Below are positions 8,262-54,493 of a stretch of DNA of 64,000 nt, in pieces. Under the pieces are notes generated by a model. The model worked only from the letters and a program-made list of their open reading frames with translations. It did not search any database and had not been told where the DNA came from. Source of the DNA: a virus (Duplodnaviria > Caudoviricetes); the IMG/VR virus record IMGVR_UViG_3300042139_000023; one strand, written 5' to 3'. Position numbers and translations under genes: made by a program. Position 1 is the first letter of the stretch, and every line of letters starts with the position of its first letter.

Positions 8262-8573
8262 ATGGCTGCTGGACTGACCCGCGAGACCACGCACTACATC
8301 GTCCATTCCACGGTCGTCGACCCGGGACCGAACTCCACCTTCGGCACCTCTCCCCCGTACTCGGGTGAGCGGGCGCTGGAGCGGGCCGTCAAGGCGGCCC
8401 ATCAGGAGTTGCGGGGGCGGCGCCGGGCGTTCGTGACGGCCCGAGACGACGCAAGCCGGATCCTCGCCGTGATCCCGGTCGTGGACTACCCGGTTTTCGG
8501 GGACACGCACGTCCCCGAGCATGCGCAGGACGCCATCACGGCCCTCTTCGAGGGGCTGGACTGGACGATCTGA
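8262..8573 (+). CDS. hypothetical protein
   Basis: ORF track. Confidence 0.65.
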   Translation: MAAGLTRETTHYIVHSTVVDPGPNSTFGTSPPYSGERALERAVKAAHQELRGRRRAFVTARDDASRILAVIPVVDYPVFGDTHVPEHAQDAITALFEGLDWTI

Positions 8574-8644
8574 CCCGGACGAAACCGGGCCCCTGGGAAG
8601 GGCTCCCGGTAGGCGGAACAGGACCGCCCTGACGAGTCCCGTCA
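8571..8644 (+). ncRNA. type II hammerhead ribozyme
   Basis: GGAC-GAAA-CCGGG..CCCGG-TA (GTA site 8609-8611)-GGCGG loop CCGCC-CTGACGA-GTCC; complete core and three stems. Confidence 0.9.
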
Positions 8645-8660
8645 GCACGGAGAGGAGAAG

Positions 8661-29021: not shown

Positions 29022-29299
29022 ACTCCGGACTGTTCGAAGCGGGGGTCGTCGAGCTGCCGAACGGCGGGCGCATCACCGTCGTGGAGTTCATGGGGCAGCC
29101 GATCGCCGAGGGCCCGGCCGAGGCACTGGACGGCGAGGGGGCGGTCGAGGAGATCCAGGAAGCCTTCTGCGCCGCTCTCGTCGCCACCCTGTCCCTGGTG
29201 ATGGGGAGCCAGGAGTTCGGCCGGTACGCGCCCAGGGAGTGGACGTACTGGCATCCGATGGCCCCGCCCCTGGCGAGGCTTCCGAAGGGAGAAGAGTGA
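29018..29299 (+). CDS. hypothetical protein
   Basis: GTGA overlap. Confidence 0.6.
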   Translation: MNSGLFEAGVVELPNGGRITVVEFMGQPIAEGPAEALDGEGAVEEIQEAFCAALVATLSLVMGSQEFGRYAPREWTYWHPMAPPLARLPKGEE

Positions 29300-29547
29300 T
29301 GAAGGGCATGGACGGGCTGATCGTCACGGCGGTCAACCGGATGCACGAGGACGAGCTGGAGATGCGGCGCCGCTGGGCCGAGCGCATCCGGGAGGAGTTC
29401 GGGAAGTACCACGAGCACTCCGGCGGCGGTGAGTGCGGCGCCTGCGGGGCGATCCAGGGGGCGAACTGGATGGACCCGGACTACGTCAAGGACGGCCCGG
29501 TCGCGGAGCCGTTCGGGACCTGGAAGGACCGCCAGCCCCAGGTGTGA
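29299..29547 (+). CDS. hypothetical protein
   Basis: TGATG coupling. Confidence 0.65.
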   Translation: MKGMDGLIVTAVNRMHEDELEMRRRWAERIREEFGKYHEHSGGGECGACGAIQGANWMDPDYVKDGPVAEPFGTWKDRQPQV

Positions 29548-29617
29548 CTGACCCGAGGCCGAAACGCCGCACCCAGCGGCGTCGCGCAGTGAGACTGCGC
29601 CTGACGATGGCCGTCAG
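29548..29617 (+). ncRNA. type II hammerhead ribozyme, variant with extra U between A9 and G10.1
   Basis: CTGAC-ccga-GGCC-GAAA-CGCCGC loop GCGGCG-TC (GTC site 29581-29583)-GCGCAG loop CTGCGC-CTGACGA-T-GGCC-GTCAG. Confidence 0.85.
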
Positions 29618-29635
29618 TGGAGGGAGGGGAGAGTA

Positions 29636-29842
29636 GTGAGGAAGCGGGATTCGACGGCCGACGAGGTCTACGACTGGGCGGTGAAGCAGAAGCTGCCCGC
29701 GCCGGACGCATTCGCCATGCGGTACTGGGATCTCGCCGGGGCGACGGTCAGGCTGGGTCTGGCTGCCAGGCTCTGGCGACGGCAGGTCAGGAACGGCACC
29801 ACGGGATTCCCACTGGTGGACGGGGATCGAACGGACGCGTAA
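29636..29842 (+). CDS. hypothetical protein downstream of hammerhead 2
   Basis: GTG after GGAGGGAGGGGGAG. Confidence 0.6.
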   Translation: MRKRDSTADEVYDWAVKQKLPAPDAFAMRYWDLAGATVRLGLAARLWRRQVRNGTTGFPLVDGDRTDA

Positions 29843-30868: not shown

Positions 30869-31402
30869 ATGAAGCCGACAGAACTGCAAGAAGCGGAGAT
30901 CTTCGACGTTGACGGCACGCTGTGCAACGTCACCAGCGTCCGCCACTACGTCACGCCGCCGAACCGGGACTTCCACTCCTTCCACATGGCTTCCGCCTTC
31001 TGCCCGCCGCACGAGGAGGTGGTCGAGCGGGTGCACGAGGCCAAGGCCAAGGGGCGAGCCGCCATCGTGGTGACCGCCCGCATGGCCCGGTACCGGACCC
31101 TCACCCGGAAGTGGCTTCAGAGCTGCGGGATCCCGTTCGACAGCCTCTGGATGCGAGCGAACGACGACTTCCGCAAGGACGCGATCGTGAAGCGGGAGAT
31201 CCTGGCCAAGATCCGAGCCAACGGATTCGTCGTGATGAAGGCGCACGACGACAACCCGGCCGTGATCGAGGTGTGGGAAGACGAGGGAATCGAGACCCAG
31301 ATCGTGCCCGGATGGGACGATCAGTTCACCGGCCTCCTGCTGCCGCAGGACGGCCTGACCGTGGTCCGTGAGACGGGCCACGCCGGAGAGGGGAAGCAGT
31401 GA
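30869..31402 (+). CDS. polynucleotide kinase-type 3'-phosphatase (HAD), stand-alone domain
   Basis: FDVDGTL, IVVTAR, MRANDDFRKDAIVK, DDN motifs as in the T4 Pnk phosphatase domain. Confidence 0.85.
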   Translation: MKPTELQEAEIFDVDGTLCNVTSVRHYVTPPNRDFHSFHMASAFCPPHEEVVERVHEAKAKGRAAIVVTARMARYRTLTRKWLQSCGIPFDSLWMRANDDFRKDAIVKREILAKIRANGFVVMKAHDDNPAVIEVWEDEGIETQIVPGWDDQFTGLLLPQDGLTVVRETGHAGEGKQ

Positions 31403-51496: not shown

Positions 51497-51569
51497 TGCT
51501 CCTGGCAGGATTCGAACCTGCGACATCCGGATCCGGAATCCGGTGCTCTATCCCCTGAGCTACAGAAGC
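51497..51569 (-). tRNA. tRNA-Arg(CCG)
   Basis: Full cloverleaf; loop TT-CCG-GA. Confidence 0.95.
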
Positions 51570-51580
51570 GTTTTCCGATC

Positions 51581-51976
51581 TCACCAGATGTCGTACAGCA
51601 TCCGGCGAGGAACCTTCTCGGCCTTCTCGTACAGCCGACGTTCGAGTTCACCCTTCGTTCGGCGCCCGGCCTCCAGCTTGCCCTTCACGTACCGCCGGTT
51701 GGCCCGCTCGTGCTTCTGGGCCCAGTAGGTACGGCTGGAGCTGGGTGTCCAGGCCCCGGTGTAGGTCCACCAGCGAGCGGTGCGCCTCACCTTCCGGGGC
51801 TGCGGCCTGCGGCCCTGCTCCTCGGCATCGCGGAGTTCCGCAGCGCTGTAGCGCAGGTCGTAGACCGTGTGCTCACGGACGGGGATGACGGGGCGGCCCC
51901 GCCAGTACATGCAGTACCCGTCCGGCCACTCCCGGATGTCGAACTTGCCCTTCAGGTGATGTGCCGTCTTGCCCAT
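51581..51976 (-). CDS. basic hypothetical protein within tRNA cluster
   Basis: ORF track; GGAGG RBS. Confidence 0.65.
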   Translation of the reverse strand: MGKTAHHLKGKFDIREWPDGYCMYWRGRPVIPVREHTVYDLRYSAAELRDAEEQGRRPQPRKVRRTARWWTYTGAWTPSSSRTYWAQKHERANRRYVKGKLEAGRRTKGELERRLYEKAEKVPRRMLYDIW

Positions 51977-52077
51977 CGGAATGCATCCTCCTAGGGCCGC
52001 GAGTTTCGCGGACCTAGGTGAAGCCGGTGGAGAATCCCATCATCACTCCAGACTGTTCAGGTACGGATGTTCCTGAG

Positions 52078-52175
52078 TGCGCGAGGCAGGGATCGAACCT
52101 GCACTGGACGTCTCCTCAGAGCCTTTCCGAGTGCCCTGTTCGCCGGGCTCTGACTCGGAGTACTCTTGCACGCGC
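52078..52175 (-). ncRNA. tRNA-like RNA with H-type pseudoknot replacing D and anticodon arms
   Basis: GCGCGUG/CUCGCGC acceptor; GCAGG-UUCGAUC-CCUGC T arm; UCCGAGU/ACUCGGA crossed with CAGAGCC/GGCUCUG. Confidence 0.65.
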
Positions 52176-52266
52176 GACCGCACTGCGCAATGCGGCCCTT
52201 TACCACCGACTGTAATTCCGACCGGGTTTTTCAGACCACGGAAGGACATAGTGTCGTCGGCACACG

Positions 52267-52339
52267 CTCTCCTGACTGGACTTGAACCAGTAACATCCGC
52301 ATTAACAGTGCGGCGCTCTGCCGGTTGAGCTACAGGAGA
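52267..52339 (-). tRNA. tRNA-Asn(GTT)
   Basis: Cloverleaf; CT-GTT-AA. Confidence 0.95.
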
Positions 52340-52478
52340 TCGAATCTGAAATTGTTTTCGTGGGCCTCATCCCTAGCACCACGCGGCGCACCGACCTTGT
52401 TCTGCTGCGCTTCTCAACTGTCCTGGCCGTCGGGCGGATGGCGACCAGGCAGTACTCCTATCTCCGCCACGTACTACG

Positions 52479-52550
52479 CTCCCCAGCCTGGATTTGAACC
52501 AAGAACGCCTGACCCAGAATCAGGTGTTTTGCCAGTTAAACTACCGGGGA
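52479..52550 (-). tRNA. tRNA-Gln(CTG)
   Basis: Cloverleaf; TT-CTG-GG. Confidence 0.93.
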
Positions 52551-52663
52551 TCGCTATGTAATTGTTGGCAACCGGACGGCAATGTTTCCGCTCTCGGGAT
52601 GCTTCCACTCGTATATCCTGCCCGCCACAGCAGAACCGTGTCCACATCTTACCGTCCGGCCAG

Positions 52664-52738
52664 TGGCCCCGACTGGACTCGAACCAGTGACCTCTGGGAT
52701 TTCACTCCAGCGCTCTTACACACCTGAGCTACAGGGCC
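52664..52738 (-). tRNA. tRNA-Phe(GAA)
   Basis: Cloverleaf; GT-GAA-AT. Confidence 0.9.
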
Positions 52739-52889
52739 TTGCACCCCTTGATGTATAGCTGGGCAGGGGCCGCCCTCCACTCACCTTCCGGAGAAGGTTG
52801 GCTCATGGACTCGCTTTGCCTCACTCTCTGCCCCGTGGATAGTGGTCTCGTGAACCACGAACTCCACGGGAATCCGCCTCCGAAGCCAG

Positions 52890-52967
52890 CGCACCTGACG
52901 GGATTTGAACCCGCGAAAATCTCCGCCTTGACAGGGCGGCGAGGACTCCAGACTCCTCCACAGGTGC
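52890..52967 (-). tRNA. tRNA-Asp(GTC)
   Basis: Cloverleaf; CT-GTC-AA; G73. Confidence 0.93.
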
Positions 52968-52974
52968 ATGTTTC

Positions 52975-53418
52975 TTATTCTTCTAGGCTAGACCACCATC
53001 CGAACTGAATGCCAGTCCTTTTCAGATGACAGTTCGCGCATCGAACGTCACATTTTTCGATCTCCTTCAGAACCGACTCCCATTTCATTGCATTCTTGAT
53101 CATGGTGGAAATCGGGTACAGCTTTTCCGAAGGCTCTCGATGGTCGAACTGTAAGACTCGGATGTCTGATTCACCGCAATCGACACAAGGCTTATCCTTC
53201 AGGTACTCCACGATCTTCTCGCGAAGCTCCTTCATGATTCTTTTGTTGCGTGTTCTCGCCTTGTCGACGTAAGCCTGTTTATTGTTGCTGTAGTGATTTC
53301 GAACGTACTCGCGCTGACAGTCGTGGCAGTGCTTGTACGTATACGGCTTTCCCTCCTTTACTGTCGTTCTGAACTCTGAATCAGGCTTGTCTTCATCGCA
53401 CTTGGTACAAATAGGCAT
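52975..53418 (-). CDS. HNH/His-Me endonuclease, likely homing
   Basis: CxxC..CxxC, CVDCG..FDHR..CANCH; AT-rich relative to flanks. Confidence 0.8.
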   Translation of the reverse strand: MPICTKCDEDKPDSEFRTTVKEGKPYTYKHCHDCQREYVRNHYSNNKQAYVDKARTRNKRIMKELREKIVEYLKDKPCVDCGESDIRVLQFDHREPSEKLYPISTMIKNAMKWESVLKEIEKCDVRCANCHLKRTGIQFGWWSSLEE

Positions 53419-53432
53419 TGATAGCTTTCAGG

Positions 53433-53507
53433 TCGAGGTGGCGAGATTTGAACTCGCGTCCTTCCGATCCGTAGTCGGCTGCCCCATCCGAACTGGGCCA
53501 CACCTCG
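53433..53507 (-). tRNA. tRNA-Arg(ACG) with C1:G72 Pro-like acceptor
   Basis: Cloverleaf; CT-ACG-GA. Confidence 0.9.
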
Positions 53508-53597
53508 TTCAGCCTTTCACCCTTCGCGCCAAGCGTGACCAAGGCAGGATCCAGGCCGACCACACCCAAGCCCCAGGAAGCCGTGAGGATGCGGCAG

Positions 53598-53670
53598 TAC
53601 GCCCTACTGGACTTGAACCAGTGACACGAGGATTAAGAATCCCCTGCTCTGCCAACTGAGCTAAGGGCGC
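53598..53670 (-). tRNA. tRNA-Lys(CTT)
   Basis: Cloverleaf; TT-CTT-AA. Confidence 0.95.
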
Positions 53671-53677
53671 GCGTTCT

Positions 53678-53800
53678 TCAGTTCTGCTTGTCGTCCTTGG
53701 GGCCCCAGTAGTGGCCCGTGTAGACGTGGACGGGATATCCGTCCTGCTGCACCTTCTTCAGGTGCCCTTCGTACGTCCGAGCTTTGCACTTACAGCTCAC
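53678..53800 (-). CDS. 40-aa hypothetical protein
   Basis: GTG after AAAGAAGGTG. Confidence 0.5.
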   Translation of the reverse strand: MSCKCKARTYEGHLKKVQQDGYPVHVYTGHYWGPKDDKQN

Positions 53801-53956
53801 GATCGCACCTTCTTTCTTGTCCCGATTTTCACAGGAACCCCTGGCTTCCCGGGACAGCGTTTCACCAGGGGTCTGCCTAACATCCAGCCGGGTCTGTCCT
53901 CCCGAGCCTTCCGCTGGCATACAGCTAACGGATTATGAGTCCGCGCTGCACCTTCG

Positions 53957-54030
53957 TATCCCTGACTGGACTTGAACCAGTGGCCTTTCCCTTATGAGGG
54001 GAGTGCTCTGACCAACTGAGCTACAGGGAC
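53957..54030 (-). tRNA. tRNA(CAT): elongator Met or Ile2
   Basis: Cloverleaf; CT-CAT-AA; G1 paired, so not initiator. Confidence 0.9.
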
Positions 54031-54035
54031 CTGCG

Positions 54036-54108
54036 AGCCTCCGACCGGAATTGAACCGATGGCATCCGACTTACGAAGACGGCGCTCTACCGACTGAGCT
54101 ACGGAGGC
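54036..54108 (-). tRNA. tRNA-Thr(CGT)
   Basis: Cloverleaf; TT-CGT-AA. Confidence 0.93.
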
Positions 54109-54295
54109 ATTCGGGGAAACCGCCCTGCTACTACCGACCCTCCCGCTCCGACCGGCAGACGCTTTCCCCTACGCAAGATGCCATCCTTGCACTCTTCGGC
54201 TCGCGAAACCGATGGCGCGGGAACTGCGGTTTCCTGGCGGAGTGGACGACGTCGTAAAGGAAAGAGGTACTTCCAGTACGCCGCCAGGAAACCAG

Positions 54296-54370
54296 TCGGA
54301 ATGACAGGATTTGAACCTGCGAACCTCTCCGTCCCGAACGGAGCGCTCTACCAAGCTGAGCTACATTCCG
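54296..54370 (-). tRNA. tRNA-Pro(CGG)
   Basis: Cloverleaf; C1:G72, A73. Confidence 0.95.
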
Positions 54371-54418
54371 GTAAAGGTTCCCCAGGGTGACGGGGGGATT
54401 GTAACCCCGGGGAACCAG

Positions 54419-54493
54419 CAGGGACAGCAGGATTTGAACCTGCGACACGCGGCTTTGGAGACCGCTGCTCTGGCCAAGCTGAGCTATATCCCT
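54419..54493 (-). tRNA. tRNA-Trp(CCA)
   Basis: Cloverleaf; CT-CCA-AA; G73. Confidence 0.95.

What the first reader, a model, noticed from the sequence alone, without database searches (positions are those of the whole stretch)
29548..29617. Second type II hammerhead of the same architecture, with an extra core nucleotide
Seen in sequence: CTGAC-ccga-GGCC / GGCC-GTCAG stem II; GAAA at 29561-64; stem III CGCCGC/GCGGCG; GTC triplet (cut after 29583); stem I GCGCAG/CTGCGC; core CTGACGA followed by an extra T at 29608. The helices differ in sequence from hammerhead 1 but all pairings are kept. It has the same UGAC..GUCA closure and the same position between stop codon and RBS, 21 kb away. Established: an extra nucleotide between A9 and G10.1 is tolerated in a natural viroid hammerhead (CChMVd). 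The compensatory divergence argues for selection on function.
Basis: partly seen in the sequence, partly recalled or inferred. Interest (0 to 1): 0.86.

Follow-up and report, generated by a model that had tools for sequence, protein, structure and literature searches.

The report
Phage hammerhead ribozyme between two genes
This 70-base stretch is a genuine self-cutting RNA (a type II hammerhead ribozyme) placed between two genes of a large soil Streptomyces-type phage. It belongs to a widespread phage subfamily that carries one extra U in the catalytic core and a 3' tail able to pair with that core.

Summary
Window 29548-29617 (+) has the full hammerhead core, three helices, a GUC cleavage site (cut after 29583) and one extra U (29608) between A9 and G10.1.

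- **Rfam:** Hammerhead_II is the only credible match, at 33.8 bits against a gathering score of 37.
- **Relatives:** the element lies at the same intergenic place in Streptomyces phages Frankenweenie, Kela, JustBecause and Satis. Eight base pairs carry compensatory changes, all cells stay paired, and the core and extra U are invariant.
- **Extra U:** it is not an oddity. It is the usual inserted base (68 U, 2 C, 1 A, 0 G) in many viral-contig hammerheads, and experiments on a viroid hammerhead found U there tolerated or beneficial.
- **New here:** Across independent phage hammerheads the first tail base matches N7 in 40 of 40 cases. This points to an alternative core-tail hairpin, which I infer traps the cleaved product or acts as a switch.

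Most likely role: cutting a polycistronic phage transcript between a stop codon and the next ribosome-binding site. Cleavage itself is untested.

The parts
29299..29547 (+). Upstream ORF (open from 29239; probable start ATG 29299); stop codon TGA at 29545-47 directly abuts the ribozyme
   Evidence: ORF list. 79% amino-acid identity to Frankenweenie gp270 up to the C-terminus.
29548..29552 (+). 5' closure strand CUGAC; pairs with the tail 29613-17 and extends stem II
   Evidence: Sequence and MFE fold. Invariant in the six Streptomyces-phage copies. Adds about 3.8 kcal/mol in favour of the catalytic fold.
29553..29556 (+). Asymmetric internal loop CCGA ((A)CCNA in relatives)
29557..29560 (+). 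Stem II, 5' strand GGCC (positions 11.4-11.1)
   Evidence: Covaries to GACC/GGUC in a paralogous family.
29561..29564 (+). Core G12 A13 A14 plus A15.1
29564..29582 (+). Stem III hairpin: the A15.1-U16.1 pair plus 6 bp, with loop ACCCA
   Evidence: Three pairs carry changes on both sides among relatives.
29583..29583 (+). C17; predicted self-cleavage between 29583 and 29584
   Evidence: Follows from the hammerhead numbering. H17 is C, A or U and never G in 81 relatives.
29584..29600 (+). Stem I hairpin (6-7 bp, loop UGAGA)
   Evidence: Five pairs carry changes on both sides among relatives.
29601..29607 (+). Core C3 U4 G5 A6 C7 G8 A9 (CUGACGA)
   Evidence: invariant in relatives.
29608..29608 (+). 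Extra U between A9 and G10.1
   Evidence: Scored as an insertion against the Rfam model. Invariant in orthologues. U in 68 of 71 inserted relatives.
29609..29612 (+). Stem II, 3' strand GGCC (positions 10.1-10.4)
29613..29617 (+). 3' tail GUCAG. Complementary both to 5' CUGAC (29548-52) and to core C3-N7 (29601-05). With C29612 it can form a 6-bp hairpin CUGACG/CGUCAG.
   Evidence: The first tail base is Watson-Crick to N7 in 78 of 78 tail-bearing hammerheads overall, and in 40 of 40 in scans that fixed neither base.
29620..29842 (+). Ribosome-binding site (GGAGG-rich, 29620-34) and downstream ORF (GTG 29636 to 29842, 68 aa)
   Evidence: 55% amino-acid identity to Frankenweenie gp269. The site is left single-stranded in the predicted fold of the 3' product.
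8570..8645 (+). Hammerhead 1: a paralogous type II hammerhead with a GUA site, no extra U and the same CUGAC/GUCAG ends
   Evidence: Orthologues in all four relatives.

Best explanation
Window 29548-29617 (+) encodes a functional type II hammerhead ribozyme embedded in a long co-directional phage transcript.

**How it most likely works.** As the RNA is made, stems III and I fold as hairpins. Stem II (GGCC/GGCC), extended by CUGAC/GUCAG, then closes the three-way junction, and the RNA cuts itself after C29583.
- The 5' product carries the upstream ORF with its stop codon. It ends in the stem III hairpin with a 2',3'-cyclic phosphate.
- The 3' product starts with a 5'-OH at the stem I hairpin. 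It carries the next ribosome-binding site and ORF.

**The extra U.** The U after A9 is a normal, selected feature of this phage subfamily. It is not a defect.

**Inferred, about 0.4-0.5 likely.** After cleavage the freed core CUGACG pairs with CGUCAG (29612-17). This displaces the 5' fragment, makes cleavage irreversible, and gives the new mRNA two 5' hairpins with a free ribosome-binding site.

**What is shown and what is inferred.**
- Shown: motif, fold, synteny, covariation, family-wide regularities.
- Inferred: cleavage in vivo, the effect on expression, and the role of the tail.
For: - **Core and helices:** complete core and three helices at the stated bases.
- **Fold:** the MFE fold equals the hammerhead fold, z -3.65.
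- **Rfam:** Hammerhead_II is the only credible match.
- **Synteny:** copies sit at the same place in 4 related phages whose flanking proteins are only 55-79% identical.
- **Covariation:** 22 pairs, 100% of cells paired, 8 pairs changed on both sides, 0 of 500 shuffles as good, and the signal collapses when partners are slid.
- **Cleavage site:** H17 is never G in 81 relatives.
- **Extra nucleotide:** U 68, C 2, A 1, G 0. This matches the biochemistry: at that position U raises the rate while C and G are detrimental (PMC3705267).
- **Placement:** 80% of 225 related phage hammerheads begin within -1 to 6 nt of the stop of a 50-codon-or-longer open frame, against 4.3% of random positions. 69% have an SD-like tetramer within 30 nt after stem II.
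- **No competing signal:** no promoter-like or terminator-like site nearby.
- **Tail-core helix:** 27% of 188 independently sampled hammerheads have a fully complementary tail against 1.4% expected. N7 and the first tail base are Watson-Crick in 40 of 40 (C-G 20, U-A 18, A-U 1, G-C 1; permutation p <= 5e-6). G-U wobble variants also occur.
- **3' product:** it folds into two hairpins and leaves the ribosome-binding site free.
- **Published precedent:** type II hammerheads near phage genes cleave in vivo and in vitro (PMC8782182). Processing of long phage transcripts by multiple hammerheads has been proposed (PMC3088659).
Against: - No cleavage assay exists for this sequence or any orthologue.
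- The Rfam score is below the gathering threshold.
- No loop I-to-tail pseudoknot of 4 bp or more, the tertiary contact typical of type II hammerheads, is present (3 bp at most). No other tertiary contact could be identified.
- A 229-nt contig from a soil metatranscriptome library spans the cleavage site uncut (29495-29723). It may be DNA carry-over or uncleaved precursor.
- Nearest-neighbour energies put the inactive core-tail hairpin within about 3 kcal/mol of the active fold. The fraction that cleaves is therefore uncertain.
- The post-cleavage role of the tail rests on covariation and folding predictions only.
Confidence: 0.82

Rival explanations
1. The core-tail hairpin is a pre-cleavage OFF state, making the element a regulated ribozyme. 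The tail sequesters C3-G8 unless the 5' CUGAC captures the tail. Because the 5' CUGAC abuts or contains the upstream stop codon, a terminating ribosome would strip it off. This would couple cleavage to translation of the upstream gene.
For: - The tail-core complementarity is conserved with covariation.
- Without the 5' CUGAC the hairpin (-31.2) slightly beats the hammerhead fold (-30.2). With it the hammerhead fold wins at -34.0.
- The stop codon lies directly before the 5' CUGAC here. It lies inside the CUGAC in hammerhead 1 and in Kela.
- It ends a 50-codon-or-longer open frame inside the closure in 23 of 29 closed relatives.
Against: - 49 of 78 tail-bearing relatives have no 5' competitor at all. 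On this model they would be mostly off.
- Secondary-structure energies ignore tertiary stabilisation of the active fold.
- Open frames of 50 codons are common by chance in high-GC DNA, so the embedded-stop count is soft.
- There is no experimental hint of regulation.
Confidence: 0.2
2. An inactive or crippled hammerhead-like relic. The extra U or a missing tertiary contact abolishes catalysis, and the conserved hairpins act only as passive mRNA structure, for example stabilisers or an RNase site.
For: - Below the Rfam gathering score.
- No recognisable tertiary contact.
- An RNA-library contig bridges the site.
Against: - Passive hairpins would not keep 14 unpaired core nucleotides invariant while the stems drift by compensatory change.
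- The inserted base is almost always U, the one base reported to raise activity (PMC3705267).
- H17 is never G.
- Canonical phage relatives without the U also mostly miss the Rfam threshold, so the low score is a model limitation.
Confidence: 0.06
3. Cleavage followed by ligation. Because stem II and its closure are the same in several hammerheads of one genome, the 5' end left by one ribozyme and the 3' end left by the next could reassemble a hybrid hammerhead. That would circularise or splice the intervening RNA.
For: - Satis has two copies with identical stem II and closure flanking one 72-aa gene, about 311 nt apart.
- This possibility was raised for prophage hammerhead arrays (PMC3088659).
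Against: - In this window the two hammerheads are 21 kb apart and their stems II (GGAC/GUCC and GGCC/GGCC) do not match.
- Perreault et al. looked for such products and found none (PMC3088659).
- No back-joined contigs were seen (table 5).
Confidence: 0.04

Closest known systems
Type II hammerhead ribozymes of bacteria and prophages (Rfam RF02276; Perreault et al. 2011, PMC3088659)
   Same: - Same permuted topology: stems I and III capped, stem II open.
- Same core.
- Intergenic position among phage genes, several copies per genome.
- Same proposed role in cutting long phage transcripts.
   Different: - One extra U between A9 and G10.1.
- A 4-bp GGCC stem II extended by a second helix across an internal loop.
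- No loop I-to-tail pseudoknot of 4 bp or more.
- A tail complementary to the core.
- Scores below the Rfam gathering threshold.
CChMVd (+) hammerhead with extra A10 (De la Pena and Flores 2001, as cited in PMC1636495 and PMC3705267)
   Same: A single extra nucleotide at exactly the same place, between A9 and G10.1. Mutating that A to U raised the cleavage rate 3-4 fold.
   Different: It is a type III viroid hammerhead in a circular replicating RNA, and the natural base is A. Here the base is U, in a type II ribozyme within a DNA phage mRNA.
Desulfovibrio vulgaris type II hammerheads shown active by cyPhyRNA-seq (PMC8782182)
   Same: Type II hammerheads next to hypothetical and phage-like genes. 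Cleavage was demonstrated in vivo and during in vitro transcription.
   Different: Different host. I did not compare their sequences with this subfamily (extra U, tail).
Burkholderia phage BcepGomr / Bm1 intergenic element (NC_009447 43868-43948)
   Same: Same detailed architecture: CUGAC-CCGA-GGCC-GAAA ... CUGACGA-U-GGCC-GUCAG. 79% identity over 70 nt to the window.
   Different: Proteobacterial host and a longer stem III. The matched stretch lies under the CDS BcepGomrgp59; the match row names no RNA feature.

Membership tests
Hammerhead ribozyme (clan CL00010) | Conserved core C3 U4 G5 A6 N7 G8 A9 and G12 A13 A14 | tested here: met
   CUGACGA at 29601-07 and GAA at 29561-63. Invariant in 6 orthologous or paralogous copies.
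Hammerhead ribozyme (clan CL00010) | A15.1-U16.1 pair and a non-G nucleotide 17 at the cleavage site | tested here: met
   A29564-U29582 and C29583. H17 is C 73, A 5, U 3, G 0 in relatives.
Hammerhead ribozyme (clan CL00010) | Three helices around the core, supported by covariation | tested here: met
   100% of cells paired. 8 pairs changed on both sides in stems I and III. 0 of 500 shuffles as good. Stem II covaries (GGCC/GGCC to GACC/GGUC, GCCC/GGGC) in the wider set.
Hammerhead ribozyme (clan CL00010) | G10.1-C11.1 pair directly following A9 | tested here: not met
   One U (29608) lies between A9 and G10.1. This deviation is documented as compatible with catalysis in CChMVd and its U mutant (PMC1636495, PMC3705267).
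Hammerhead_II (RF02276) | Type II topology: stems I and III closed by loops, stem II open | tested here: met
Hammerhead_II (RF02276) | Score at or above Rfam's gathering threshold (37 bits) | tested here: not met
   33.8 bits. Control: none of the 16 extra-U relatives scanned reached the threshold, and only 3 of about 26 canonical relatives with the same stem II did. The threshold is insensitive for this whole phage group.
Hammerhead_II (RF02276) | Pseudoknot of 4 bp or more between loop I and the 3' tail (Perreault et al. 2011) | tested here: not met
   Longest complementarity is 3 bp for both window hammerheads. In 187 relatives it is no more frequent than with shuffled tails.
Hammerhead ribozyme (clan CL00010) | Site-specific self-cleavage giving a 2',3'-cyclic phosphate and a 5'-OH | not testable with these tools
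The only RNA data are low-depth contigs, which cannot show RNA ends.

The most novel reading that the evidence does not exclude
A sizeable fraction of phage type II hammerheads (about a quarter of those sampled), including this one, carry a built-in second conformation. A 3' tail NUCAG sits immediately after stem II and pairs with the catalytic core C3-N7, plus G8 with the last stem II base. In the Streptomyces and Burkholderia phage versions a third strand, the 5' CUGAC that overlaps or abuts the upstream stop codon, competes for the same tail. This three-strand exchange would act either as a product-release and anti-ligation trap or as a translation-sensitive on/off switch for mRNA cutting. 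I found no description of this helix in the papers I could search.
Probability: 0.4. Interest if true: 0.68.

Novelty: new variant of a known kind. Interest (0 to 1): 0.5.

Why it matters
What bacterial and phage hammerheads do biologically is still an open question. This locus gives three things.

1. **A tractable system.** Cultured Streptomyces phages (Kela, JustBecause, Satis, Frankenweenie) each carry three or four orthologous ribozymes in one transcription arm.
2. **A general placement rule.** In the phage hammerheads sampled, the order stop codon, ribozyme, ribosome-binding site is the norm.
3. **A testable structural idea.** The core-tail helix could explain how cleavage is made irreversible or is regulated.

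It also shows that the standard Rfam threshold misses most members of this phage group, with or without the extra U. Phage genome annotations therefore under-report ribozymes.

Tried and rejected
- **Default Rfam scan (gathering):** no hammerhead in the window. It appeared only with E-value thresholds.
- **Own genome:** none is held for this window.
- **Genome-contig scan with the 17-mer CTGACGATGGCCGTCAG:** 120 loci, but only 3 hold a real hammerhead. The rest are chance matches at that database size, so the scan gives no host range.
- **Viral-contig scan with GCCTGACGATGGCC:** the 114 distinct matches in newly fetched loci (113 of the 120 stretches returned) were mostly coding-sequence chance hits. 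None was a type II hammerhead lacking the GUCAG tail. Nineteen were type I hammerheads.
- **Reads:**
  - Two soil metatranscriptome runs hold parts of the region only as short low-depth contigs.
  - One contig bridges the cleavage site (29495-29723).
  - This cannot separate uncleaved RNA from DNA carry-over, and contigs cannot show RNA ends.
  - There were no joints.
- **Loop I-to-tail pseudoknot:** not enriched over shuffled tails.
- **Loop I to the 5' internal loop:** looked at by eye for complementarity; nothing consistent.
- **Constrained-fold comparison of active and alternative folds across 78 relatives:** differences scatter around zero (medians +1.0 and +2.2 kcal/mol). Energies alone do not say which state dominates.
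- **De la Pena and Flores 2001:** the paper itself is not held. Its results are cited through PMC1636495 and PMC3705267.
- **Promoter and terminator scan:** nothing near the element.
- **Pfam and PHROGs on five of the ORFs nearest the ribozyme:** no hits.

Full report
**1. The observation**

In order:
- CUGAC, then the internal loop CCGA
- stem II strand GGCC
- G12 A13 A14 and A15.1
- a 6-bp stem III (CGCCGC/GCGGCG, loop ACCCA) closed by A15.1-U16.1
- C17 at 29583
- a 6-7 bp stem I (GCGCAG/CUGCGC)
- the core CUGACGA
- one extra U (29608)
- GGCC, then GUCAG

The minimum-free-energy fold of the 70 nt is this three-way junction. It scores -34.0 kcal/mol, z = -3.65, and no shuffle of 200 folds as well.

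Rfam's default scan found only 11 tRNAs. With E-value thresholds the only credible match is Hammerhead_II (RF02276). It scores 33.8 bits against a gathering score of 37, with E 1.5e-5 locally and 0.0048 for the whole window. The U, together with the following G, is scored as an insertion.

A structural scan of my own over both strands found just two type II hammerheads. These are this one and hammerhead 1 at 8570-8645, which has a GUA site, stem II GGAC/GUCC, no extra U and the same CUGAC...GUCAG ends.

**2. Context**

The window is a large Streptomyces-type phage, 77-84% identical over this region to Frankenweenie, Kela, JustBecause and Satis, which have genomes of 184-200 kb. It recurs in soil and rhizosphere metagenomes.

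The upstream ORF ends with TGA at 29545-47 and is 79% identical to Frankenweenie gp270. The downstream ORF starts at GTG 29636 behind a GGAGG-rich site and is 55% identical to gp269. There is no promoter-like or terminator-like site within about 1 kb. The element therefore lies inside a polycistronic unit.

**3. Conservation**

All four relatives have an 87-94 nt gap at the same place, and each holds the same ribozyme. Satis has two, in adjacent gaps. Across the six copies:
- The 14 core nucleotides, the extra U, stem II and the outer CUGAC/GUCAG are invariant.
- Stems III and I change by paired substitutions.

The counts are 22 pairs, 100% of cells paired, 8 pairs with changes on both sides, and 0 of 500 shuffles as good. 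The signal collapses when partners are slid by 1-3 columns.

A covariance model built from these copies finds three or four strong hammerheads per relative genome, all on the gene strand of one arm. They fall into three families:
- the family of this element
- a second family with U or C inserted and stem II GACC/GGUC
- the hammerhead 1 family

The order and spacing match the window. The hammerhead 1 orthologues of Kela and JustBecause have U10.1-U11.1. That is a natural variant already reported as active (PMC3088659).

**4. The extra U is the rule in a large subfamily**

- A pattern scan of IMG/VR that left the inserted base free gave 77 model-confirmed hammerheads in 118 loci. Among 81 parsed copies the inserted base is U 68, C 2, A 1, G 0, and ten have none.
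- A second scan returned 87 further stretches with N7 not C and the U insertion.
- Nineteen type I hammerheads with the same CUGACGA-U-GGCC junction turned up incidentally.

This bias fits the biochemistry reported for the CChMVd (+) hammerhead. There the extra A10 lowers the rate moderately, C or G is strongly detrimental, and U raises it 3-4 fold (PMC3705267, PMC1636495).

The low Rfam score is not caused by the U alone. None of the 16 extra-U relatives scanned reached the gathering score, and only 3 of about 26 canonical relatives with the same stem II did.

**5. The tail pairs with the core**

In the wider family the picture changes.

Of 228 validated, non-identical type II hammerheads, 78 have a tail NUCAG directly after stem II. 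In all 78 the first tail base is the Watson-Crick partner of N7.

The tighter test uses only the two scans that fixed neither N7 together with the tail. These give 188 hammerheads:
- 40 of 40 NUCAG tails match N7 (C-G 20, U-A 18, A-U 1, G-C 1; permutation p <= 5e-6).
- 27% have a fully complementary tail at offsets 0-3, against 1.4% expected.
- G-U variants (AUCGG, GUUAG) occur, as expected for an RNA helix.

Only 29 of the 78 have a complementary 5' flank. The conserved partner of the tail is therefore the core C3-N7, which cannot be paired in the active ribozyme.

For this window:
- With the 5' CUGAC, the hammerhead fold scores -34.0 kcal/mol.
- Without it, a 6-bp hairpin CUGACG/CGUCAG scores -31.2 and edges out the hammerhead fold at -30.2.
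- The free 3' product folds into the stem I hairpin plus this second hairpin, leaving the ribosome-binding site unpaired.

My preferred reading is a post-cleavage refolding that expels the 5' fragment, which is otherwise held by 9 bp at -11.1 kcal/mol, and blocks re-ligation. A pre-cleavage off-state coupled to translation termination is the main rival. I found no description of this helix in the literature I could search.

**6. Position rule**

In 80% of 225 related hammerheads the stop codon of an open frame of 50 codons or more ends within -1 to 6 nt of stem II. At random positions of the same contigs the figure is 4.3%. In 69% an SD-like tetramer follows within 30 nt.

This supports the proposal of Perreault et al. 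that phage hammerheads cut long transcripts into gene-length mRNAs (PMC3088659). Type II hammerheads near phage-like genes have been shown to cleave in vivo (PMC8782182).

**7. What is missing**

- There are no cleavage data for this sequence.
- The loop I-to-tail pseudoknot typical of type II hammerheads is absent, and I could not identify the tertiary contact.
- An RNA-library contig bridges the site, which is uninformative at this depth.

**8. Verdict**

This is a genuine, conserved type II hammerhead. It is a member of a widespread but under-annotated phage subfamily with a U insertion after A9. The added value is the family-wide evidence and the core-tail alternative helix.

Noticed in passing
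window 8570-8645 (+): Hammerhead 1: a type II hammerhead with a GUA site, stem II GGAC/GUCC and no extra U. The upstream stop codon TGA (8571-73) lies inside its 5' CUGAC. Orthologues occur in all four relatives.
   Followed up: partly
window 30869-31402 (+): A 177-aa protein with the phosphatase domain of polynucleotide kinase/phosphatase (PF25109, 67.6 bits; phrog_415, E 1e-39) and no kinase domain, 1.25 kb downstream of the ribozyme. Such enzymes act on 2',3'-cyclic or 3'-phosphate RNA ends, which is what a hammerhead leaves. Any link is speculative.
   Followed up: partly
window 51497-54493 (-): A cluster of 11 tRNA genes on the minus strand (Rfam, 51.6-70 bits).
   Followed up: no
L010, L011, L012 (1501-1581, -): A third hammerhead family in Frankenweenie, JustBecause and Kela, lying between the orthologues of hammerheads 1 and 2. 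The inserted base is U or C and stem II covaries (GGCC/GGCC versus GACC/GGUC). No counterpart was found in the window.
   Followed up: partly
L013, L014 (1501-1583, -): The hammerhead 1 orthologues of Kela and JustBecause have a U10.1-U11.1 mismatch and a GUU site in place of G-C and GUA.
   Followed up: no
L004 1717-1795 and 2028-2106 (+): Satis (and Quantum, Kradal, EhyElimayoE) has two copies of this ribozyme flanking a single 72-aa gene, with identical stem II and closure. The excised RNA of about 311 nt would have ends able to rebuild a hybrid hammerhead.
   Followed up: no
L256 4141-4197 and 7245-7302 (+): Two twister-P5 ribozymes (49.2 and 46.8 bits, above gathering) on the same viral contig as an extra-U hammerhead.
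   Followed up: no
L145, L159, L166, L175, L192, L221 and others: Nineteen type I hammerheads (stem II capped) in viral contigs carry the same CUGACGA-U-GGCC junction. The extra U is therefore not tied to the type II topology.
   Followed up: partly
tails of relatives, e.g. L077, L134, L267, L293, L319: Beyond NUCAG many tails continue with N-AAC (GUCAGCAAC, AUCAGAAAC, CUCAGUAAC). This further conserved stretch is unexplained.
   Followed up: no
window 29635: An A-to-C difference one base before the GTG start appears in both a DNA contig and an RNA-library contig of one soil study. No differences fall inside the ribozyme in those contigs.
   Followed up: no
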